Sequence record: MF044457 | Reading direction: 5' to 3' (one strand) | DNA from: Escherichia phage ST0 | Length of the DNA stretch: 64,000 bases | In this document: positions 1-28,116 of the stretch, one piece after another | Position numbering within the stretch: the stretch's first letter is position 1 | Layout of the letters: each line of letters opens with the position of its first letter | Notes under the pieces: generated by a model | Databases searched by the model: none | Seen by the model: only the letters and a program-made list of their open reading frames with translations | What the model was told of the DNA's origin: nothing | Made by a program: the position numbers and the translations under genes

Positions 1-113
1 ACTACACTGTTCTCCTTGAGAAGACATTTATTAAACCACTTGAAGGATTCACATCAGCAGCGAAACTCGATTACGAGAAGAAAGCATCTCTGTTCGATAT
101 GTTCGATTTTTGA
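1..113 (+). CDS. 43: 3' end of DNA polymerase (gene 43), partial
   Basis: Frame ending TGA at 111-113 translates ...KPLEGFTSAAKLDYEKKASLFDMFDF*; the tail matches the sliding-clamp-binding C-terminal peptide I recall for RB69 polymerase. Position upstream of the 42/uvsX block fits T4 synteny. Confidence 0.6.
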   Translation, partial: YTVLLEKTFIKPLEGFTSAAKLDYEKKASLFDMFDF

Positions 114-153
114 TATAATGACATGGACGGTAAACTAATTAAATGAGAGAAAT

Positions 154-789
154 ATGAAAACTACTCCTATTACTATCGCTATTGACGCAATCATAAAACA
201 AGCTTCTTCTTTGGCCGCTATGGCCAAAGTAATTAGTCAAAACCCTGCTCGTTATAATGCTATTCTAGAAACTCTTCGACGCCCAGGACTTAGTAATTAT
301 GAAAGCCGAGTAATTATTACAGGTGTTGGTAAGAATGCTAATATTGCAACTAAAGCTTCTGAGACATTTGCTTCACTCGGTATCCCGAGTATGTACTTGA
401 ACACCGGGCATTATTCTCACGGTGATGCAGGATTCATTGCGCCTAATGATGTGTTGATTCATATTAGTCGTTCTGGTAAAACTGAAGAAATGATAGGCGT
501 GGCTAAGCATCTTAAAATGATTCGTCCGAACGTCAAACAGATTCTGTTGCATTGTAACCCAGACATTCCACAAGAAAATGAAGCCCTTTTTGATTACTCT
601 TTCTGTACAGGCATCGCAGTAGAGGTTGATGAGAATTCTCTGGCTCCGACCATGTCCACTACATTGTTGTTAGCGCTTATCGATACTTTTGCTATCAACC
701 TTTCGTCTGAGCGTGGATTTACCTCTAATGACTTCCTTAAGTTCCACCCTGGTGGTGCACTAGGTGCCATGTTACGAGGCGAACAATGA
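154..789 (+). CDS. SIS-domain sugar-phosphate isomerase, KdsD/GutQ-like arabinose-5-phosphate isomerase without CBS domains
   Basis: ORF track 211 aa. Motifs typical of the KdsD/KpsF SIS domain: GVGKNANIATK, SHGDAGFI, ISRSGKT, APTMSTT, FHPGGALG. RBS GAGAG upstream. Confidence 0.8.
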   Translation: MKTTPITIAIDAIIKQASSLAAMAKVISQNPARYNAILETLRRPGLSNYESRVIITGVGKNANIATKASETFASLGIPSMYLNTGHYSHGDAGFIAPNDVLIHISRSGKTEEMIGVAKHLKMIRPNVKQILLHCNPDIPQENEALFDYSFCTGIAVEVDENSLAPTMSTTLLLALIDTFAINLSSERGFTSNDFLKFHPGGALGAMLRGEQ

Positions 790-929
790 AAGCAATAACA
801 ATAGGACTTTTACTATTGATGCTTATCATGACTATCTACTGGAGCTTAACGGCTCCGGTAATGATTCCGACTCTTATAATCGGATGGATTATGATTGGAC
901 TACAAGCAAAGTATGAATGCTTTAACTAG
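786..929 (+). CDS. small hydrophobic protein, 47 aa, below ORF-track size cutoff
   Basis: ATG at 786 overlaps the stop of the preceding gene (ATGA). Translation MKAITIGLLLLMLIMTIYWSLTAPVMIPTLIIGWIMIGLQAKYECFN is almost entirely hydrophobic. Confidence 0.35.
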   Translation: MKAITIGLLLLMLIMTIYWSLTAPVMIPTLIIGWIMIGLQAKYECFN

Positions 930-970
930 AATAGTGTACAATACTCCTACTTACCAATGAGGACCACAAT

Positions 971-2656
971 ATGAAAAAAGCTGTTATTCTTGGTGCTGGA
1001 CTGGCAACTCGTTTGTATCCAATAACGCATCATATTCCTAAGGTGCTTGTTAACTATAAACAAGACACTATTCTGAGCAATTTGTATACAATTTATTCTG
1101 ACCTTGGTGCAGACGAAATTATTGTAGTAGTTCATTCAAAATTTGCTGAAACTGTTCGAGCTTATTGTGAGCAAGAAGGGTTCAATGTGACTATTCGTAC
1201 AGTTGATGAAGCATATGGTTCTGCTTATGCTCTTGCTAAATTGCACAAAGATTTAGACGGCCATAATGTAATTGTTAACTGGTGTGATATTATTCCCGAT
1301 TTTGGTTCATGGTCTTGGAATGTTAACGCAATCTATGTTAAGGGTGACGAATGTCGATATAATTTCGACGGTGAAAATATCACTAACGTAGGTTCAACAG
1401 GTGGTAATGTTGTAGGAATTTATCAGTTCAAAGACTGGGAATTCTATATGGGTTCTACTGATGAGGAAATTCATGAATACTGCAAAGGACGTGATTTCGT
1501 AGAATTCCTTTACGGCAGCGCATTCAATAAATCAGAGCTTATGAATCTAATTGATTTAGGTGATATGCCTAAACTTGAAAAAGCTCATGAAGTTCGTGAA
1601 CTTAATCGTAGTTTTAATGCAGTTGAAATCGGTGAAGAAACTGTAACTAAATTCGCATTAACCGAACAGGGCCGAGCTCTTCAGAAAGATGAGATTTCAT
1701 GGTATCTTAAAGTGAAATCAGATTCAGTTCCTCAGTTAGTTTCTGTTAATGAAAATAACTTTGAAATGGAACGCATTAAAGGTAAGCCAGCATTTGAATA
1801 TATTAAATCCAAATCGAGTCTTGCTCGTCCACAAATTGTTGATGCAATTTTAGATGCACTGAAATTCAGCACAGACACTTATTTTGTAAGTCCTGAAACT
1901 GTTCGCCGTGATTTCACTAAAGAGTTCTATACGAAAGTTATTGATCGTTGTGAAAGTATTCAACCATTGATTGATTCATTCGGTAAAATCACACATGTGA
2001 ACTACACTAAGATTGGACGTCTGAAGCCAATGTTGAAACAAGCTTTAGAACACCTTATTCGTTATCATAACCGTTCTCAGGGACAGTACTCTGTTATTCA
2101 TGGTGACCCGAACTTCAGTAATACTATGATTACTGATAATGGTGAAGTCAAGTTTATCGACCCTCGTGGATATTTTGGTGAAACCAAGATTTACGGGCCA
2201 AAATTGTATGATGAAGCTAAAGTGCTTTATGCTGTTTCAGGTTATGATGAATTCAACGCTAATCCGACCTGGGGGCAATTTACTATTGATGAAACAACTT
2301 GTAATGTGACTATTAACATCAATCCATTAGTTTACAAATATGGAAAGATGAGTTCGTTTAACGAGTATCATCATTTGGCAGTTGCAATTATCTGGATTGC
2401 ATTAGGCGGTTATTTCAAGAATAATCCACTTAAAGCGGTAGCCGCATATTATAAAGGTATGGAACTTCTGACTAAGCAATTACGCAACATGGGCCGTGTA
2501 CTTCAGGACGGCTCTATTAGTTATGACGTAGCAGAACCTGTAACGGCTACTCTGATTACAAAAAATCCTGGTAAATGGGTACTAACTGATAAAGAAACTG
2601 GTGTTTCCTATCGTCCAATCGGTGGCGATATCACTCATCAATGGGAACGAATCTAA
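971..2656 (+). CDS. bifunctional sugar-1-phosphate nucleotidyltransferase (N-terminal) / sugar kinase of the choline-kinase/APH fold (C-terminal)
   Basis: ORF track 561 aa. N-terminus ILGAGLATRL is the G-x-G-x-R loop of LicC/RmlA-type nucleotidyltransferases. C-terminal half has HGDPNFSNTMI and FIDPRG, resembling the catalytic loop and DFG-like motif of LicA/APH kinases. RBS GAGGA. Confidence 0.8.
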   Translation: MKKAVILGAGLATRLYPITHHIPKVLVNYKQDTILSNLYTIYSDLGADEIIVVVHSKFAETVRAYCEQEGFNVTIRTVDEAYGSAYALAKLHKDLDGHNVIVNWCDIIPDFGSWSWNVNAIYVKGDECRYNFDGENITNVGSTGGNVVGIYQFKDWEFYMGSTDEEIHEYCKGRDFVEFLYGSAFNKSELMNLIDLGDMPKLEKAHEVRELNRSFNAVEIGEETVTKFALTEQGRALQKDEISWYLKVKSDSVPQLVSVNENNFEMERIKGKPAFEYIKSKSSLARPQIVDAILDALKFSTDTYFVSPETVRRDFTKEFYTKVIDRCESIQPLIDSFGKITHVNYTKIGRLKPMLKQALEHLIRYHNRSQGQYSVIHGDPNFSNTMITDNGEVKFIDPRGYFGETKIYGPKLYDEAKVLYAVSGYDEFNANPTWGQFTIDETTCNVTININPLVYKYGKMSSFNEYHHLAVAIIWIALGGYFKNNPLKAVAAYYKGMELLTKQLRNMGRVLQDGSISYDVAEPVTATLITKNPGKWVLTDKETGVSYRPIGGDITHQWERI

Positions 2657-3042
2657 TGCACCGTGTAGAAAACATGCTTAATCTTTGTTTTGATGTCGAT
2701 GATTGTATAACAGAGTGGAATAACAATCGTGATTACGTGAACTTCAAACCAGACGTCGAAATGGTGTCTGCCATTAATGCCCTGTATGATGCAGGGCATA
2801 CCATAACGCTTTACACTGCTCGCGGTATGAAGTCAGTAGGCCCTGGTCGTATAGCAATTGACATTCTCCCAAGTCTGATTCAGAACTTGGCAAACATTGG
2901 ATTGAAGTACCATAATTTGCTAACACATAAACCAGTATATGATTGGATTATCGACGACAAAGCTATGCGTCCTGACGAATTCAAAGCTCTTATGAATAAA
3001 GGCGAATTCGAAACATTTAAATCATATAAACCGAATCTATAA
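2656..3042 (+). CDS. HAD-superfamily phosphatase-like protein
   Basis: ORF track 2641..3042; start moved to ATG at 2656 overlapping the upstream stop (TAATG). Motif I-like FDVDDC near the N-terminus, T in LYTAR, K in THKP, IIDDK motif IV-like. Confidence 0.6.
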   Translation: MHRVENMLNLCFDVDDCITEWNNNRDYVNFKPDVEMVSAINALYDAGHTITLYTARGMKSVGPGRIAIDILPSLIQNLANIGLKYHNLLTHKPVYDWIIDDKAMRPDEFKALMNKGEFETFKSYKPNL

Positions 3043-3096
3043 TAATTTAAGTAAGACCTGCAAAAACCATCGCAACAATTAACGCGAGATGCAAAA

Positions 3097-4257
3097 ATGA
3101 ATACCTTTAAAATCGGAACGAATTTTGATTTAGCTCTTCTTGATAAAATCGTAGAGCTCAATAAAACTTATCCTAATAGCTTGATAAACGAAGTATACGG
3201 CTCTACAAGAGAAATGGCTTTTGTAGCAGCCAGACCTGATTTTAGGCTTCCTGACGTTGACAAAAAGATGTTAGAAGATTACGTTAAACGTTGTAACGAA
3301 TTAGGTATTTGCTTTAACTATACACTCAACACGATAAATCCTGGTTCAAAAAGAGAACTAGTTGAGTGGAAGAAGAAAGCTATTCAGGATTATGTTCAGT
3401 ATCTTTGGTCAATAGGCGTATGGCGTATTACTATCGCTAACCCTGTTGTTATGGAAATTGTTCGTGAAGTCAATAAAGACATTGAGATTGAAGTTTCAAC
3501 AATTCTACATGTCGATGCTGTAACTCAAATCAAATACTTGCATGACCAATATAATATCAAAAAGGTCTGCTGCGGAATTCATAAGAACCGTTCAGTTTCT
3601 TTCCTGAAGCGTGCAGCAGAGTTTTGTAATAAGAACAATATAATATTTGAAGTTCTTGTAAATGAGTTCTGTTCTAATGCTGGTAAAGGGTATACAACAC
3701 ATTGTAGTTATCGTGACTCTTGCTATATTTTCCATAGCACCGATGTTACAGTAGATGATGCCAAATCTTTAAATGGATATCCAATGCAACATTGTATTAA
3801 AGCTCGTGATACAGATCCATTTAACTGGTTGAGAACTCGTTTTGTTCGTCCTCAAGATTTGAAACTTTATAATGATATTGGTATCACTCAATTCAAAGTT
3901 TCAGGACGTACAGGTAGCACAGACTACATTTTGAAAGTTCTTGAAGCTTATGCTTCTGAAAAGTTTGAAGGTAATTTGTTGGAATTGTGGAAGCCTTTAG
4001 AGACCATTTTCACTCTTGAAAATGAGACTGAGTTTTCACATACGGTAAATATTGAAACCTCTTTGTTAGATGGCTTTTTAGAAAAAAGGTGGTTCAGACA
4101 TCCAGATTTCGATTGTGCTAATGAAATCTGCGGGACGACGTGTACATATTGTGAAAGATATTATAAACGTCAATTATCTAAAAACGGGTTAGCAGAAAAC
4201 TCTATATCTATTATTGATATAACTAACTCTGATGACGCTTTGAGGTACCCGGAATGA
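3097..4257 (+). CDS. Cys-rich protein with U32-family-like signature, function unknown
   Basis: ORF track 386 aa. EVLVNEFCSNAGKGYTTHCSYRDSC resembles the U32 family signature (E-x-F-x2-G-x-x-C...C-x-x-S); C-terminal CANEICGTTCTYC cluster. Confidence 0.55.
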   Translation: MNTFKIGTNFDLALLDKIVELNKTYPNSLINEVYGSTREMAFVAARPDFRLPDVDKKMLEDYVKRCNELGICFNYTLNTINPGSKRELVEWKKKAIQDYVQYLWSIGVWRITIANPVVMEIVREVNKDIEIEVSTILHVDAVTQIKYLHDQYNIKKVCCGIHKNRSVSFLKRAAEFCNKNNIIFEVLVNEFCSNAGKGYTTHCSYRDSCYIFHSTDVTVDDAKSLNGYPMQHCIKARDTDPFNWLRTRFVRPQDLKLYNDIGITQFKVSGRTGSTDYILKVLEAYASEKFEGNLLELWKPLETIFTLENETEFSHTVNIETSLLDGFLEKRWFRHPDFDCANEICGTTCTYCERYYKRQLSKNGLAENSISIIDITNSDDALRYPE

Positions 4258-4397
4258 TTTCTAGAAAAACTTTTAACCACCAACTTAACGAAGAGATTTT
4301 GACTATGAAAATTAACAGCAACGAACAAATTCTTAAAAAGGCCCTAATGGGCCTGTTTGAAACTAAAGCGGCTAAAGTGATTAAAGAACCTGTTTAA
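4254..4397 (+). CDS. small ORF, 47 aa, below ORF-track cutoff
   Basis: ATG overlaps the stop of the preceding gene (ATGA); translation MISRKTFNHQLNEEILTMKINSNEQILKKALMGLFETKAAKVIKEPV. Confidence 0.25.
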   Translation: MISRKTFNHQLNEEILTMKINSNEQILKKALMGLFETKAAKVIKEPV

Positions 4398-4535
4398 TTG
4401 GAATACTACGCTGATGCATTTCTTCATAGTGTTCTTGGAAGTATCGATGCTGAAGCTTTACGTTATATCAACATTGTCAAGAAATTCAAATAAGCTTTAC
4501 GAATTGAGTATATAATAAATTGTATTGAGGTAAAC

Positions 4536-5252
4536 ATGGGAAAACATAACACAATGAAATATATCAAAGCCGCAGATTTTCAAACCGCATTTAAAGCAGT
4601 CAATCGTGAAATTTTAGAAAACCCGGAATTCGTAACTGATTCTCGTATTGGACGTTGTAATGAAATTGGGTCTATGACAGTAGTTGTTGACACTCCGTCA
4701 TCATTCAAAATGACTGACCCACGTATTAACCGCATCTCTTATGAATATGCCGAAGACTTCTGGAAGTTTATGATTTCTGGTGGTACCAACGCAGAAGAAG
4801 CGTTTAAGGCATATCCTAATGTCGCTAAATTTATTTCTAAACCAAAATCAGATGTTTTGCCGGCGAACTTCAACACTTTCTATGGTCCTCGCATTGTGGC
4901 CCAATTACCAGCTCTTCTAAAAGAACTTAAAGAGAAGCCTAACTCTCGAAGAGTTGTGTTCCAAATTCTAGAAAGTTCTGATCAGGCTTTGCTTGATTCG
5001 GACGAAACACTTGAATATCCATGTACTGACTCAGTGACTTATTATATTCGCGATGGTAAGCTTTATACCCACTGTCATATGCGTTCTCAGAACTGTGCTG
5101 TTGTTATGCAGTTGGATTTTTATCTCCAAGGAAAATTACTTCATTATATCGCTAACGAATGTGGTGTAGAAGTTGGTGATTATACTCATACCATGGTAAG
5201 TGCCCATGTGTTTGAACGTGATTTTGATTATGTTAAAGGATTCCTTGACTAA
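4536..5252 (+). CDS. 42: thymidylate-synthase-fold pyrimidine hydroxymethylase, gene 42 (dCMP hydroxymethylase) position
   Basis: ORF track 238 aa. NSRRVVFQI, YPCTDSVTYYIRDGK and HMRSQNCAV parallel the SRR, catalytic Cys and MRSND regions I recall for T4 gp42, but overall divergent. RBS GAGGT. Confidence 0.7.
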   Translation: MGKHNTMKYIKAADFQTAFKAVNREILENPEFVTDSRIGRCNEIGSMTVVVDTPSSFKMTDPRINRISYEYAEDFWKFMISGGTNAEEAFKAYPNVAKFISKPKSDVLPANFNTFYGPRIVAQLPALLKELKEKPNSRRVVFQILESSDQALLDSDETLEYPCTDSVTYYIRDGKLYTHCHMRSQNCAVVMQLDFYLQGKLLHYIANECGVEVGDYTHTMVSAHVFERDFDYVKGFLD

Positions 5253-6151
5253 TGGCTATTTTCCGCGTACCTATCTTGAGTATGCGGTCTTATGAAACTG
5301 GACAGTATGCTATCCTTAAGGATGGCAACTTCCAACTTCATTTGCACCGTGCTAATCCGGGTGATGTGATTACATATCCACGTAATGCATCTGATATTAA
5401 AGAATGTGAACGTCTTTTCCCAGAATTTAAGTTTGTTCCATTATGGTATAAAGATAACGCGTATAACACTCGTAAATATTTCTGGTCTGAAAATGAATTT
5501 GTGGTTGATTCATTAATTGCTTATTATGATTGTGATTTTCTAATCACAGATATCACTGGATACGACGGCGCTTTTGACGTAGAATTCAATTTCAATATCA
5601 CTGCAGACCCTAATAAACCACGTTTTTATATTGACGAATTCTTAAAAACCGATATGTTGTCGGTTAATCGTTCACTTCAAACTACCGTGTTGAATAAACG
5701 TCAAAAGGAAGTGCTGGTTAACGCTGGTGCAGATGGTAATAAGATTATCGTAACGCAGAAAGTTATACGTCCTTCCATCATGCAGCGTCTTGTAGGTGAT
5801 TTGGCTCCTATTCATCTAGATGGTATTTTTCATCCATTTCGAATTAGTGACCCGTGCTATCGTTTTGAACAAGTGGTTGAATGTGCAATTCAATTAGGCC
5901 AACCGCTTTATATAACCGATCCAAATAATAGCTTCGACAGAAATAAGTATCCTGAAGAAGCGCTGATTCGAATTTTTAAACCAACTAAAACTGAGTACTA
6001 TCAAATTCTTAAAGGACGGCCGAAGATTCAATATTTCGAAAATCCTGAAGAAGTATTCCATCCAGGTCTTGGTGAGTTCATCTACTTTAATGCTTTAATT
6101 TCTTCACCGTATAATATACCTAAATACGAAGATGTCGTAATCGAGGAATAA
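5252..6151 (+). CDS. hypothetical protein at the beta-glucosyltransferase locus
   Basis: ORF track 299 aa; start overlaps the stop of the hydroxymethylase gene by 1 nt. No motif recognised. Confidence 0.5.
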   Translation: MAIFRVPILSMRSYETGQYAILKDGNFQLHLHRANPGDVITYPRNASDIKECERLFPEFKFVPLWYKDNAYNTRKYFWSENEFVVDSLIAYYDCDFLITDITGYDGAFDVEFNFNITADPNKPRFYIDEFLKTDMLSVNRSLQTTVLNKRQKEVLVNAGADGNKIIVTQKVIRPSIMQRLVGDLAPIHLDGIFHPFRISDPCYRFEQVVECAIQLGQPLYITDPNNSFDRNKYPEEALIRIFKPTKTEYYQILKGRPKIQYFENPEEVFHPGLGEFIYFNALISSPYNIPKYEDVVIEE

Positions 6152-6152
6152 A

Positions 6153-6701
6153 ATGGCTAAAATTATTTTAGTAGATGGCCCAGATAATGCTGGTAAAACA
6201 ACTTTCATTAATGACATAATGGAAATTAGTGAAAGATATGTAAAGATTGATTTCCCTAAACGAACAGTTGATGGACGTTTCGATGTTAAGTCTCGAAATG
6301 AAGTTGGCTGTTTCGAAACGATGTTGAATTATTTAGACCCTACTAAGATTTATCTGTTAGACCGTGGATATATTAGTAACTGGGTTTATGGACGTATTCG
6401 ACAAGATGCGGACTCGGTTCTTGACGTTTATGAACAGGATTATGTTCGTCTTTGCCAAAACCATGATGTGTTCACAATTATTTTAACACGTAACGAAATG
6501 ACTGAAAGTTTTGAAGACGATCTTATTACTTTGTCTTCATTCGGTTTTAATACAGTCATTTCATATTTTGAAGAGTTTGCAATTCATAACAAAATCCAAA
6601 CGTATCAATTACTTAATCATGACGGTGCTAACAAAGTTATAGGATTTAATGCAAGCGAACGTAATTATTTGATTACAGAAATTATCAAATGGGCTCGTTA
6701 A
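6153..6701 (+). CDS. P-loop NTPase, small nucleotide/sugar-kinase-like
   Basis: ORF track 182 aa; Walker A GPDNAGKTT at residues 9-17; starts 1 nt after the upstream stop. Confidence 0.6.
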   Translation: MAKIILVDGPDNAGKTTFINDIMEISERYVKIDFPKRTVDGRFDVKSRNEVGCFETMLNYLDPTKIYLLDRGYISNWVYGRIRQDADSVLDVYEQDYVRLCQNHDVFTIILTRNEMTESFEDDLITLSSFGFNTVISYFEEFAIHNKIQTYQLLNHDGANKVIGFNASERNYLITEIIKWAR

Positions 6702-6800
6702 GAGCCTGTTTAAAGTTTTAAATGCTGTATAACCCTTAGTATATAATCGTCTTATCTTTTAAACATGAGTAAAATATAATGATGCCTATGGAAAAATACA

Positions 6801-7973
6801 ATGTCTGATTTAAAATCTCGTCTGATTAAAGCTTCTACTTCTAAAATGACTGCAGACTTGACTAAGTCTAAGCTGTTTAATAATCGTGATGAAGTCCCTA
6901 CTCGTATTCCGATGTTGAATATTGCATTAGGTGGTGCACTGAATGCCGGGTTGCAATCAGGCTTAACTATTTTTGCTGCTCCTTCTAAACACTTTAAAAC
7001 GTTGTTTGGACTGACCATGGTTGCAGCATATATGAAGAAATATAAAGATGCAATCTGTTTGTTCTATGATTCAGAATTTGGTGCTTCAGAATCTTATTTT
7101 CGTTCAATGGGTGTTGATTTAGACCGTGTAGTTCATACTCCGATTCAATCTGTCGAACAACTTAAAGTTGATATGACTAATCAGCTTGACGCTATTGAAC
7201 GCGGTGATAAAGTTATTATCTTTATCGATTCAATCGGTAATACTGCATCTAAGAAAGAAACTGAAGATGCATTGAACGAGAAAGTTGTAGGTGATATGTC
7301 TCGTGCTAAGGCACTTAAATCTCTGTTCCGCATTGTGACTCCTTATCTGACTATTAAAGATATTCCATGTGTTGCAATCAACCATACAGCAATGGAAATC
7401 GGTGGATTGTATCCTAAAGAGATTATGGGTGGTGGTACAGGTATTCTTTACTCTGCTAACACTGTATTCTTTATCTCTAAACGTCAGGTTAAAGAAGGTA
7501 CAGAATTGACCGGTTATGACTTCACGTTGAAAGCAGAAAAATCTCGCACCGTTAAAGAAAAATCTACTTTCCCAATCACGGTTAATTTTGATGGCGGTAT
7601 TGACCCATTCAGTGGCTTGTTAGAAATGGCAACTGAAATTGGTTTTGTGGTTAAGCCTAAAGCTGGGTGGTATGCTCGTGAATTTCTTGACGAAGAAACA
7701 GGTGAAATGATTCGTGAAGAAAAATCATGGCGTGCTAAAGCTACTGATTGTGTAGAATTCTGGGGGCCGTTGTTTAAACACAAACCTTTCCGAGATGCAA
7801 TTGAAACTAAATATAAACTAGGTGCTATCTCTTCTATTAAAGAAGTTGATGACGCTGTTAACGACCTTATTAATTGCAAAGCAACAACTAAAGTTCCGGT
7901 TAAAACTTCTGATGCTCCGTCTGCAGCAGATATAGAAAACGACCTTGACGAAATGGAAGATTTCGATGAATAA
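6801..7973 (+). CDS. uvsX: UvsX RecA-like recombinase
   Basis: 390 aa; near-collinear with T4 UvsX as I recall it (MSDLKSRLIKASTSK..., GWYAREFLDEETGEMIREEKSWRAK). Confidence 0.95.
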   Translation: MSDLKSRLIKASTSKMTADLTKSKLFNNRDEVPTRIPMLNIALGGALNAGLQSGLTIFAAPSKHFKTLFGLTMVAAYMKKYKDAICLFYDSEFGASESYFRSMGVDLDRVVHTPIQSVEQLKVDMTNQLDAIERGDKVIIFIDSIGNTASKKETEDALNEKVVGDMSRAKALKSLFRIVTPYLTIKDIPCVAINHTAMEIGGLYPKEIMGGGTGILYSANTVFFISKRQVKEGTELTGYDFTLKAEKSRTVKEKSTFPITVNFDGGIDPFSGLLEMATEIGFVVKPKAGWYAREFLDEETGEMIREEKSWRAKATDCVEFWGPLFKHKPFRDAIETKYKLGAISSIKEVDDAVNDLINCKATTKVPVKTSDAPSAADIENDLDEMEDFDE

Positions 7974-27015: not shown

Positions 27016-28116
27016 ATGAAAGTTATGTTTATCCCATCTCGTGCAGTCCCATTTAATCCTGACCGTGTACAAGGTGGCCTTGAAGCAGTACATTTAAATG
27101 TGTTGAAATATCTTGTGTCCATCGGTGCTGATATTGATTATATCGGCTTTGATAATGACACGTTTGGTGACTGGAAAGTTACACACCATCCTGTTGGTCA
27201 TCTGACTAAATTCAGTCTAGGTATGAGTTATACTATGGCTCGTAAGATTGTTGAACTAGCCGACATCCATGAATACGATTTTGTTGTTACTATGGAACCG
27301 ACTAAACTAACCGTTCAGGCAATTAAAGACGCAGGTCTCTCTAAAGTTCATAAGAATTTTATGGCAACACCATTTGAACCGGTATCTCGTGGCATTGTTC
27401 AAATTTGGGACCAGACTATTCAAATTCATAAGAATGGTGGTAAGAGTTATGCTCCTACTAAAGCCTTCCGTGAATTTGAACGTAAATATTGCCATATGAC
27501 TTCAGCTCTGACTGACAAAATTGATTATGATTATTGGCGAGCAAATCCGTTGTTTGAAGCCGAAGATTATCCGGTTATTTGTTTGAATGAGAAACCTGAA
27601 GTTCTTCCAGCGACTGATCTGATTATTAGTGCACAACGTTATGACACTAAAATGCGTCGTACTGATGTTGCTCTTGAAGCAATTAAAGCACTAGGCGAAA
27701 ATGGTATTGGTTATTGTCCTAGTAAATGGGCACCACCAGCTAAATATCCTGTTATTATTGATGCTCCACACAGTGAAATCATGGAACGTCTTAAAACAGC
27801 TAAAGCACTTATTAATACGTGTCCTGACACAGGTACGGTAGAGAATAGTTCTATTGAAGCCATCTCTAAAGGTGTCCCTGTAATCCAGTTAGCTTTTAAG
27901 GATTATCCTCATGCGACATTCGAATACGACCCAGATACTGTGCGTGTCGAAATTGATTCCTCTACTCCTAAGAAAGAAGTAGTTGCGCTTTACACAAAAG
28001 CTGTATTAGAATTCACTGACACATACGAAGCTCGAGTTAAACGTGCTGAAGCAGTATGGAAGAAGTATAATCGAGATGCAGTTGTTGCGATGTGGGATAA
28101 AATCTTCACAGCGTAA
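27016..28116 (+). CDS. GT-B-fold glycosyltransferase-like protein (candidate DNA hmC glycosyltransferase)
   Basis: 366 aa; C-terminal ENSSIEAISKGVPVI resembles the E-x-x-x-x-EA...G-x-PVI donor-binding motif of GT4-type GT-B enzymes. Lies between 39/60 and rIIA. Confidence 0.65.
   Translation: MKVMFIPSRAVPFNPDRVQGGLEAVHLNVLKYLVSIGADIDYIGFDNDTFGDWKVTHHPVGHLTKFSLGMSYTMARKIVELADIHEYDFVVTMEPTKLTVQAIKDAGLSKVHKNFMATPFEPVSRGIVQIWDQTIQIHKNGGKSYAPTKAFREFERKYCHMTSALTDKIDYDYWRANPLFEAEDYPVICLNEKPEVLPATDLIISAQRYDTKMRRTDVALEAIKALGENGIGYCPSKWAPPAKYPVIIDAPHSEIMERLKTAKALINTCPDTGTVENSSIEAISKGVPVIQLAFKDYPHATFEYDPDTVRVEIDSSTPKKEVVALYTKAVLEFTDTYEARVKRAEAVWKKYNRDAVVAMWDKIFTA

What the first reader, a model, noticed from the sequence alone, without database searches (positions are those of the whole stretch)
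971..2656. Fused nucleotidyltransferase and kinase in one 561 aa polypeptide
The N-terminal GAGLATRL loop is the signature of sugar-1-phosphate nucleotidyltransferases; the C-terminal HGDPNFSNTMI and IDPRG resemble the catalytic loop of choline-kinase/aminoglycoside-phosphotransferase-fold kinases. Such fusions (fucokinase/GDP-fucose pyrophosphorylase, LicA/LicC pairs) channel a free sugar to its NDP form. In a phage it implies the sugar is made and activated within the infection.
Basis: partly seen in the sequence, partly recalled or inferred. Interest (0 to 1): 0.75.

Follow-up and report, generated by a model that had tools for sequence, protein, structure and literature searches.

The report
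Known phage arabinose-activating bifunctional enzyme
The 561-residue gene is a real fusion of a sugar kinase and a sugar-nucleotide-forming enzyme that RB69-like phages use to make UDP-arabinose for decorating their DNA cytosines. A 97% identical enzyme (AfhE of phage HY126) has already been characterised, so the finding is correct but not new.

Summary
Window 971-2656 (+) is one intact 561-aa ORF. It has an N-terminal sugar-1-phosphate nucleotidyltransferase domain (aa 1-205), a C-terminal APH/choline-kinase-fold kinase domain (aa 210-507) and a 54-aa tail. All catalytic residues are invariant in 45 homologues: G10, R14, K24, D106, D195 and D198 in the first domain, and K227, E241, D379, N384 and D397 in the second.

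The window is a Mosigvirus (RB69-like T4-type coliphage). The protein is 100% identical to phage JS09's, 99.6% to RB69 ORF052c/053c, and 97% to the only such protein of phage HY126. [quoted passage not shown]

The neighbouring genes complete the pathway: an arabinose-5-phosphate isomerase, a HAD phosphatase whose start overlaps the ORF's stop, a 5-hydroxy-dCMP synthase and arabinosyltransferases.

It is not a free-sugar salvage enzyme. Its logic resembles HldE/GmhB, built from LicA/LicC-type folds.

Verdict: already known, low interest. The best side lead is the adjacent peptidase-U32-like gene, which may be an O2-independent cytosine C5-hydroxylase.

The parts
971..2656 (+). Complete ORF, 561 aa plus stop. 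It is the ortholog of HY126 AfhE and RB69 gp52:53: a bifunctional arabinose-5-phosphate 1-kinase and UDP-arabinose pyrophosphorylase.
   Evidence: 100% identical to JS09 and 99.6% to RB69 ORF052c/053c. 97% to HY126 XAN60479.1. phrog_4098 E 3.7e-295.
959..963 (+). Ribosome-binding site GAGGA, 7 nt upstream of the ATG.
   Evidence: Read directly from the sequence.
971..1585 (+). N-terminal domain, aa 1-205: sugar-1-phosphate nucleotidyltransferase fold. It carries the GAGLATRL loop (nt 992-1015), K24 (nt 1040-1042), D106 (nt 1286-1288) and DLGD 195-198 (nt 1553-1564).
1598..2491 (+). Kinase domain, aa 210-507: APH/choline-kinase (protein-kinase-like) fold. It carries K227 (nt 1649-1651), E241 (nt 1691-1693), the catalytic loop HGDPNFSN (nt 2099-2122; D379, N384) and the metal-binding IDPRG (nt 2156-2170; D397).
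2492..2653 (+). C-terminal 54-aa extension, aa 508-561. It is present in 25 of 45 homologues, with invariant T530, K535, W536 and W558. Its function is unknown.
   Evidence: AF2 pLDDT is 76-86 here, with short strands. Its presence does not track the phosphatase type.
154..789 (+). Pathway partner: a single-SIS-domain arabinose-5-phosphate isomerase (KdsD/GutQ/KpsF-like) that supplies Ara5P from ribulose-5-P.
   Evidence: NCBIfam kpsF 2e-32 and KdsD 7e-31. phrog_5670 4e-116.
2641..3042 (+). Pathway partner: a small HAD-type phosphatase (AfhF ortholog). The start is ATG 2641, or more likely the TAATG at 2656 that overlaps the stop of the 561-aa ORF.
   Evidence: TIGR01689 4.3e-13. 100% identical to HY126 XAN60478.1. 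Overlap. The same 4-nt overlap occurs in distant loci L004, L008, L009 and L010.
4536..5252 (+). Acceptor side of the module: a thymidylate-synthase homolog (RB69 gp48 type), reported to be a 5-hydroxy-dCMP synthase.
   Evidence: Pfam PF00303 1.2e-15. Function from PMC13326640.
5252..6151 (+). Consumer of the product: the putative first DNA arabinosyltransferase (RB69 gp46:47 type).
   Evidence: phrog_3891 3e-156. Assignment from PMC13326640.
27016..28116 (+). Consumer of the product: the second putative arabinosyltransferase, homolog of RB69 ORF003c.
   Evidence: tblastn, 98.1% identity over 366 aa. Assignment from PMC6024577 and PMC13326640.

Best explanation
The gene encodes the Mosigvirus ortholog of AfhE, a bifunctional enzyme that makes the sugar donor for arabinosylation of phage DNA. 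The pathway runs as follows. (1) The phage SIS-domain isomerase (154-789) converts host ribulose-5-P to D-arabinose-5-P. (2) The C-terminal kinase domain of this protein uses ATP to phosphorylate the anomeric C1, giving arabinofuranose-1,5-bisphosphate. The catalytic residues are D379 as base, N384 and D397 binding Mg, and K227-E241 binding ATP. (3) The HAD phosphatase encoded immediately downstream, whose start overlaps this ORF's stop, removes the 5-phosphate. (4) The N-terminal nucleotidyltransferase domain (G10, R14, K24, D106, D195/D198) condenses arabinofuranose-1-P with UTP to give UDP-arabinofuranose plus PPi. (5) Phage glycosyltransferases (5252-6151 and 27016-28116) transfer the arabinose onto 5-hydroxycytosine in DNA. 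Shown here: the ORF, both folds, the intact catalytic residues, near-identity to the characterised enzyme, the gene neighbourhood and its conservation. Taken from the literature: the enzymatic activities, the order of steps and UDP as the carrier. Inferred: the individual residue roles and the translational coupling.
Against: I could not read the primary biochemical paper, so the activities rest on its summary in PMC13326640. That HY126 XAN60479.1 is AfhE is inferred from its architecture and position, because the GenBank record calls it hypothetical. For this single sequence, Pfam does not detect the kinase domain above threshold: Fructosamin_kin scores 17.1 against 22.4 and there is no APH hit. 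The Pfam NTase match covers only the first ~100 of 245 profile positions, so the sugar-binding half is divergent. Table 1 of PMC13326640 still lists the other step order (phosphatase first, then a kinase on free arabinose). Purified TH1_060 gave no NDP-sugar from xylose-1-P with any of five NTPs. That negative result is compatible with furanose specificity but remains a negative result.
Confidence: 0.9

Rival explanations
1. This is a salvage-type order. The HAD phosphatase first makes free D-arabinose from Ara5P. The kinase domain then phosphorylates free arabinose at C1, and the N-terminal domain makes the NDP-sugar. The two fused activities would then be consecutive, as in FKP or AmgK/MurU.
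For: Table 1 of PMC13326640 annotates RB69 gp51 as 'dephosphorylates Araf5p to Ara' and the gp52:53 C-terminal domain as 'phosphorylates Ara to Araf1p'. APH-fold anomeric kinases acting on free sugars exist (AmgK; my own knowledge). Nothing in the sequence analysis distinguishes the two orders.
Against: The text of the same paper adopts the bisphosphate order on the basis of the HY126 enzyme assays. Structure searches in PMC13326640 for the homologous phosphatase of phage DLP3 (gp81) hit heptose-1,7-bisphosphate 7-phosphatase. The heptose pathways (HldE/GmhB, HddA/GmhB/HddC) set a precedent for kinase, then phosphatase, then transferase.
Confidence: 0.07
2. The architecture is the same but the product differs: another pentose (xylose or a deoxypentose) or another carrier nucleotide (CDP, GDP or dTDP).
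For: The closest structural matches for the N-terminal domain include cytidylyl-, thymidylyl-, guanylyl- and uridylyl-transferases with similar scores. Sequence alone does not fix the nucleotide. The Thanatos study interpreted its modification as a deoxypentose or xylose.
Against: Arabinose was identified chemically in RB69 DNA (PMC6024577), by NMR as D-Araf on 5-hydroxy-dC (PMC13326640), and in Mosigvirus NP (PMC13390438). An arabinose-5-P isomerase lies immediately upstream. UDP-arabinose is reported as the AfhE/AfhF product. TH1_060 gave no NDP-sugar from xylose-1-P with any of the five NTPs tested.
Confidence: 0.03
3. The protein is a LicA/LicC-like phosphocholine pathway enzyme, or an aminoglycoside or other small-molecule kinase fused to a transferase, and is unrelated to DNA modification.
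Against: Identity to these is only 11-20%. The gene context is sugar-phosphate and nucleotide metabolism in every locus examined. Some homologues are fused to SIS sugar-phosphate isomerase domains. The enzyme assays reported for the 97% identical protein point to arabinose.
Confidence: 0.01

Closest known systems
AfhE of Escherichia phage HY126 (with AfhF); equivalent to RB69 gp52:53 and DLP3 gp82
   Same: 97% identical over the full length and in the same position between the arabinose-5-P isomerase and the HAD phosphatase, which is itself 100% identical. The architecture is the same: NTase, kinase, tail. The reported activities are Ara5P 1-kinase and UDP-Ara pyrophosphorylase (PMC13326640).
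   Different: There are 17 differences. Most fall in aa 228-265 of the kinase N-lobe, and none touches a catalytic residue. The window carries the allele shared with JS09 and many other Mosigviruses.
HldE plus GmhB (ADP-heptose pathway) and HddA/GmhB/HddC (GDP-heptose pathway)
   Same: The chemical logic is the same. A sugar carrying a terminal phosphate is phosphorylated at C1, a HAD phosphatase removes the terminal phosphate, and a nucleotidyltransferase activates the sugar-1-P. In HldE, steps 1 and 3 are likewise fused in one protein while step 2 is separate (my own knowledge). HddC is the best sequence-profile match of the N-terminal domain (E 7.6e-14).
   Different: The HldE kinase has a ribokinase/PfkB fold and its transferase has a cytidylyltransferase fold. 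HddA is a GHMP kinase (my own knowledge). Here the kinase has an APH/ChoK fold and no PfkB, GHMP or CTP_transf_like family is detected. The sugar is a pentofuranose, not a heptose.
AmgK/MurU (MurNAc recycling) and LicA/LicC (phosphocholine activation)
   Different: Those are separate proteins that catalyse consecutive steps on an unphosphorylated substrate, with no intervening phosphatase. Identity is 11-20%.
FKP (Bacteroides L-fucokinase/GDP-fucose pyrophosphorylase)
   Same: One polypeptide combines a nucleotidyltransferase with a sugar-1-kinase.
   Different: The FKP kinase has a GHMP fold and acts on the free sugar in consecutive steps (my own knowledge). No GHMP signature is present here.

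Membership tests
AfhE / RB69 gp52:53 family (phrog_4098) | Full-length similarity to the characterised or reference members | tested here: met
   phrog_4098 E 3.7e-295, aa 1-561 against 1-559 of 559. 99.6% to RB69 and 100% to JS09. 97% to HY126 XAN60479.1.
AfhE / RB69 gp52:53 family (phrog_4098) | Two-domain architecture: N-terminal nucleotidyltransferase plus C-terminal kinase | tested here: met
AfhE / RB69 gp52:53 family (phrog_4098) | Gene context: arabinose-5-P isomerase upstream; HAD phosphatase, ThyA-like 5hodCMP synthase and GT downstream | tested here: met
   The order is the same in Bas47, HY126 and distant loci L004, L008, L009 and L010.
AfhE / RB69 gp52:53 family (phrog_4098) | Ara5P kinase and UDP-arabinose pyrophosphorylase activities | not testable with these tools
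   Reported for HY126 AfhE in PMC13326640, citing He et al. 2026. The primary paper is not held.
Sugar-1-phosphate nucleotidyltransferases (Pfam PF00483, RmlA/GalU/LicC/MurU/HddC type) | Pfam score above the gathering cut-off | tested here: met
   39.1 bits against 21.2. The match covers only profile positions 1-101 of 245.
Sugar-1-phosphate nucleotidyltransferases (Pfam PF00483, RmlA/GalU/LicC/MurU/HddC type) | G-x-G-x-x-R-L loop, the following Lys, and acidic metal or substrate ligands | tested here: met
   G10, R14, K24, D106, D195 and D198 are invariant in 45 sequences. They align to LicC and HddC.
Sugar-1-phosphate nucleotidyltransferases (Pfam PF00483, RmlA/GalU/LicC/MurU/HddC type) | Fold | tested here: met
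APH/choline-kinase-like kinases (Pfam PF01636 clan) | Pfam score above the cut-off for this sequence | tested here: not met
   Only sub-threshold hits: Fructosamin_kin 17.1 against 22.4, EcKL 16.2 against 22, RIO1 16.1 against 22. However, 11 of 45 homologues hit PF01636, the best at 6.1e-10.
APH/choline-kinase-like kinases (Pfam PF01636 clan) | Catalytic loop H-x-D-x4-N, downstream metal-binding Asp, and the beta3 Lys / alphaC Glu pair | tested here: met
   H377-G-D379...N384, D397, K227 and E241 are invariant. They align with the corresponding motifs of APH(2'')-IIa. K227 lies in strand 224-229 and E241 in helix 232-247.
APH/choline-kinase-like kinases (Pfam PF01636 clan) | Fold | tested here: met
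FKP (fucokinase/GDP-fucose pyrophosphorylase) | GHMP-fold kinase domain | tested here: not met
   No GHMP family in the Pfam or NCBIfam scans. The kinase domain has an APH/ChoK fold.
HldE (bifunctional heptose kinase/adenylyltransferase) | PfkB/ribokinase-fold kinase plus cytidylyltransferase-fold transferase | tested here: not met
   Neither family is detected. The folds are different. The resemblance is in pathway logic only.

The most novel reading that the evidence does not exclude
The protein may be more than two independent active sites on one chain. It could be the scaffold of a channelling complex. It fuses the first and third steps, and the gene for the middle step overlaps its stop codon in every phage locus examined. 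In giant-virus-like contigs all four activities (HAD, SIS, NTase, kinase) are fused into one polypeptide. The T4-like members also carry a conserved 54-aa C-terminal extension (invariant T530, K535, W536, W558) of unknown role. That extension could mediate oligomerisation or docking, for example to the phosphatase, the arabinosyltransferases or the replication machinery, so that arabinose-1,5-bisphosphate is never released. My evidence does not exclude this. It also does not support a tail-to-phosphatase pairing, because a tail-less homolog sits next to the same phosphatase type.
Probability: 0.2. Interest if true: 0.35.

Novelty: already known. Interest (0 to 1): 0.15.

Why it matters
The enzyme supplies UDP-arabinofuranose, a donor that E. 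coli is not known to make, for the arabinosyl-5-hydroxycytosine hypermodification. That modification shields Mosigvirus DNA from restriction enzymes and affects other phage defence systems. The role was proposed in 2018, and by 2026 it had been established biochemically for an enzyme 97% identical to this one. This window therefore adds another member, not new biology. The finding remains useful as a correct annotation: many GenBank records still label the gene 'hypothetical protein' or 'GlmU'. It is also an entry point to the still unassigned genes of the module.

Tried and rejected
(1) I tried to read the two primary papers (He et al. 2026; Mahler et al. 2025). Neither is held, there are no held supplements for PMC13326640, and no preprint turned up.

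(2) I searched for HY126 among JS98-like (Dhakavirus-type) homologues and did not find it. It appeared by chance in the U32 search, which showed that HY126 is Mosigvirus-like.

(3) A sequence search of the full protein against the PDB returned only nucleotidyltransferases. The full-family profile gave only marginal kinase hits (RIO2, E 0.034). A kinase-domain-only profile was needed.

(4) I tested whether the C-terminal tail docks the phosphatase. The correlation test failed: tail-less L009 has the same small HAD at 62% identity.

(5) FKP-type and HldE-type membership is rejected because the folds differ.

(6) Rfam found no RNA family in 1-7000. The sigma-70 and terminator scans were at background levels. 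There is no T4 late-promoter box TATAAATA within 1-7000. Base composition is uniform, with no sign of recent foreign origin.

Full report
**Observation.** Window 971-2656 (+) is a single ORF of 561 codons plus a stop. A GAGGA ribosome-binding site precedes it at 959-963. The only antisense ORF of 60 aa or more in the interval is a 62-aa frame at 947-1135, with nothing to support it. Rfam finds no RNA family in 1-7000.

**What the window is.** The first 6.7 kb are 98-98.7% identical to many Mosigvirus genomes, including S143_2, JS09 and phi25-307. RB69 itself matches at the protein level and is classified as a Mosigvirus.

The gene order from the start of the window is:
- the end of the DNA polymerase gene;
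- a SIS-domain arabinose-5-phosphate isomerase (154-789);
- a 47-aa hydrophobic ORF (786-929);
- the 561-aa gene (971-2656);
- a small HAD phosphatase (2641 or 2656 to 3042);
- a peptidase-U32-like protein (3097-4257);
- a thymidylate-synthase homolog (4536-5252);
- a phrog_3891 protein (5252-6151);
- a thymidylate-kinase-like protein (6153-6701);
- UvsX and gp41.

This is the RB69-specific module between gp43 and uvsX that Thomas et al. described in 2018 (PMC6024577).

**Anatomy of the protein.** I aligned 45 homologues with 28-75% identity to the query (A1). An AlphaFold2 model built on that alignment has mean pLDDT 93.5 and pTM 0.89. The model shows three parts.

*Residues 1-205* form a nucleotidyltransferase domain.
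- Pfam NTP_transferase is above its cut-off, at 39.1 against 21.2 bits.
- The family profile hits HddC at E 7.6e-14.
- G10, R14, K24, D106, D195 and D198 are invariant.

*Residues 210-507* form a protein-kinase-like domain of the APH/choline-kinase type.
- For this single sequence Pfam gives only sub-threshold kinase hits. However, 11 of the 45 homologues hit PF01636.
- A profile of the kinase domain alone (A2) hits APH(2'')-IIa at E 6.6e-7. That alignment places K227, E241, H377-G-D379...N384 and D397 opposite the corresponding lysine, glutamate, H-x-D-x4-N loop and metal-binding aspartate of the resistance kinase.
- All of these residues are invariant.

*Residues 508-561* form an extension found in 25 of the 45 sequences, with invariant T530, K535, W536 and W558. 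Model confidence is lower here.

**Identity with a characterised enzyme.** The protein is 100% identical to that of JS09 and several other phages. It is 99.6% identical to RB69 ORF052c/053c, which is split in the RB69 record and which PMC13326640 attributes to a sequencing error. It is 99.5% identical to BASEL phage Bas47, where it is annotated 'putative enzyme involved in UDP-arabinose biosynthesis'.

PMC13326640 summarises work on phage HY126 (He et al., Nat Chem Biol 2026). [quoted passage not shown] AfhF is a Mg-dependent phosphatase that converts arabinofuranose-1,5-bisphosphate to arabinofuranose-1-phosphate. RB69 gp52:53 and gp51 are described as their counterparts.

I located HY126 (PP658200.1) in the phage collection and found it to be Mosigvirus-like. 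Its only NT-kinase protein, XAN60479.1, is 97% identical (545/562) to the window protein. Most differences fall in aa 228-265, away from the catalytic residues. Its downstream phosphatase is 100% identical. The equation XAN60479.1 = AfhE is my inference from architecture and position.

**Mechanism.**
1. The phage isomerase makes Ara5P from ribulose-5-P.
2. The kinase domain phosphorylates C1.
3. The HAD phosphatase removes the 5-phosphate.
4. The N-terminal domain adds UMP from UTP to give UDP-arabinofuranose.
5. Glycosyltransferases at 5252-6151 and 27016-28116 (98% to RB69 ORF003c) put arabinose on 5-hydroxycytosine. That base is made at the dCMP level by the ThyA homolog (PMC13326640; PMC13390438).

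The modified base is 5-hydroxycytosine, not hydroxymethylcytosine as first thought.

The fused activities are thus steps 1 and 3 of a three-step activation. This is the logic of HldE/GmhB in ADP-heptose synthesis (my own knowledge), built from the folds of LicA/LicC or AmgK/MurU. It is not the FKP-type salvage of a free sugar.

**Independent genomic support obtained here.**
- The stop of the 561-aa ORF overlaps the phosphatase start, as TAATG at 2654-2658 or the upstream ATG at 2641. The same 4-nt overlap recurs in four distant loci.
- The order SIS, NT-kinase, phosphatase, ThyA homolog recurs in divergent T4-like contigs and in a 350-kb jumbo-phage-like contig.
- The phosphatase slot is always occupied but by different HAD subfamilies. 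It is a small EcbF/BcbF-like HAD in the window, L008 and L009, and a 179-184-aa Hydrolase_3-like protein in L004 and L010.
- Polypeptides of 890-955 aa fuse HAD, SIS, NTase and kinase domains. One lies in a giant-virus-like context with MutS7-HNH and RNA polymerase subunits.

These are Rosetta-stone arguments that the phosphatase step belongs between the two fused activities.

**Caveats.**
- The enzymology is second-hand, because the primary paper is not held.
- Table 1 of PMC13326640 still lists the alternative order (phosphatase first, then a kinase on free arabinose).
- The 54% identical Thanatos homolog TH1_060 gave no product from xylose-1-P with any NTP, although it is essential for phage propagation.
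- The sugar-binding half of the N-terminal domain is too divergent for Pfam to align.

**Novelty and verdict.** The gene was flagged as a UDP-arabinose candidate in 2018 (PMC6024577). It was modelled as NTase plus kinase in PMC13326640, and a 97% identical ortholog has been characterised biochemically. It is already known. Interest is low.

**Side lead.** The most interesting loose end nearby is the peptidase-U32-like gene (3097-4257), which PMC13326640 lists only as 'sugar or heterocycle reductase'.
- U32-family proteins RlhA and TrhP are implicated in prephenate- and Fe-S-dependent C5-hydroxylation of cytidine and uridine in RNA. TrhP-mediated hydroxylation is also O2-independent (PMC5727448, PMC6599085).
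- The phage protein has an E185...C192...C203 stretch that resembles the essential Glu/Cys/Cys residues of the TrhP and RlhA U32 motif, but with different spacing. It also has a C-terminal CX4CX3CX2C cluster.
- It is at least 80% identical in all 220 phage records that carry it. No Acinetobacter phage appears among the ten most frequent organism names, although 57 Acinetobacter phage records encode the NT-kinase.
- It may therefore provide an O2-independent route to 5-hydroxycytosine, alongside the O2- and flavin-dependent ThyA homolog.
- The JS98-like E. coli phages appear to lack it: 135 Escherichia records carry it against 175 with the NT-kinase. This weakens a simple aerobe/anaerobe correlation.

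Noticed in passing
window 3097-4257 (+): A peptidase-U32-like gene (Pfam 6.3e-11) sits between the phosphatase and the 5-hydroxy-dCMP synthase. It is RB69 gp50, listed only as 'sugar or heterocycle reductase' in PMC13326640. U32 proteins RlhA and TrhP are implicated in prephenate-dependent C5-hydroxylation of C and U in RNA, and TrhP's route is O2-independent (PMC5727448, PMC6599085). The phage protein has E185/C192/C203 plus C209 and C233, and a C-terminal C340-x4-C-x3-C-x2-C352 cluster. It is at least 80% identical in all 220 phage records that have it. No Acinetobacter phage is named among them, although 57 encode the NT-kinase. It is also absent from distant modules L004, L008, L009 and L010, and apparently from the JS98-like E. 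coli phages. Hypothesis: it is an O2-independent cytosine C5-hydroxylase for anaerobic infection.
   Followed up: partly
window 2492-2653 (aa 508-561 of the 561-aa protein): A conserved 54-aa C-terminal extension is present in 25 of 45 homologues (invariant T530, K535, W536, W558) and absent from the tail-less phage homologues sampled and the sampled four-domain fusions (P0084, P0091, P0092). No family match; AF2 pLDDT 76-86. Its presence does not track the phosphatase type: tail-less L009 has the same small HAD at 62% identity.
   Followed up: partly
L001 8001-10781 (P0084); also P0088, P0089, P0091, P0092, P0106: Homologues exist as single 890-955-aa polypeptides that fuse HAD, SIS, NTase and kinase domains. 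One lies in a giant-virus-like neighbourhood (MutS with HNH, RNA polymerase Rpb2 and RNA_pol_N) inside NCBI assembly GCA_013558355.1, and one comes from a eukaryotic transcriptome. Other ~786-aa versions carry a C-terminal extension that JGI names cupin-like. The arabinose-activation pathway is therefore not confined to T4-like phage DNA modification.
   Followed up: partly
window 2641-2658; L004 9557-9560; L008 6650-6653; L009 6530-6533; L010 6599-6602: The stop of the NT-kinase gene overlaps the start of the phosphatase gene in every locus examined. This holds even though the phosphatase is a small EcbF/BcbF-like HAD in some loci and an unrelated-looking 179-184-aa Hydrolase_3-like protein in others. 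It suggests conserved translational coupling with non-orthologous replacement of the middle enzyme.
   Followed up: partly
window 786-929 (+): A 47-aa strongly hydrophobic ORF (MKAITIGLLLLMLIMTIYWSLTAPVMIPTLIIGWIMIGLQAKYECFN) lies between the isomerase and the 561-aa gene. Its ATG overlaps the isomerase stop (ATGA). An ORF of the same length and position is annotated as hypothetical in Bas47 and HY126.
   Followed up: no
window 1652-1765 (aa 228-265 of the 561-aa protein): Most of the 17 differences from HY126 AfhE are packed into about 37 residues of the kinase N-lobe (for example VSVNEN-NFEM against VSYHPGGHFIM), while the rest of the protein is nearly identical. This looks like a recombination patch. 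K227 and E241 are unchanged.
   Followed up: no
window 111-119 (+): TGATATAAT, an extended -10-like element, overlaps the stop codon of the DNA polymerase gene about 35 nt upstream of the isomerase start. No T4 late-promoter box (TATAAATA) occurs in 1-7000. This is consistent with early or middle expression of the module but was not tested.
   Followed up: no
window 4254-4535 (+): Between the U32 gene and the ThyA homolog, Bas47 annotates a 79-aa ORF. The window has only a 47-aa ORF (4254-4397) followed by short frames, and HY126 annotates a 40-aa ORF there. This small region varies among Mosigviruses.
   Followed up: no
Shewanella phage Thanatos (PMC12838424); relates to window 971-2656 and perhaps 5252-6151: The Thanatos study reports UDP-xylose pyrophosphorylase activity for TH1_063, a 300-aa protein with a glycosyltransferase-like fold. 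It found no in vitro activity for TH1_060, the NT-kinase homolog at 54% identity, which is nevertheless essential for the phage. This conflicts with the division of labour proposed for RB69 and HY126. I did not check whether TH1_063 is the homolog of window 5252-6151.
   Followed up: no
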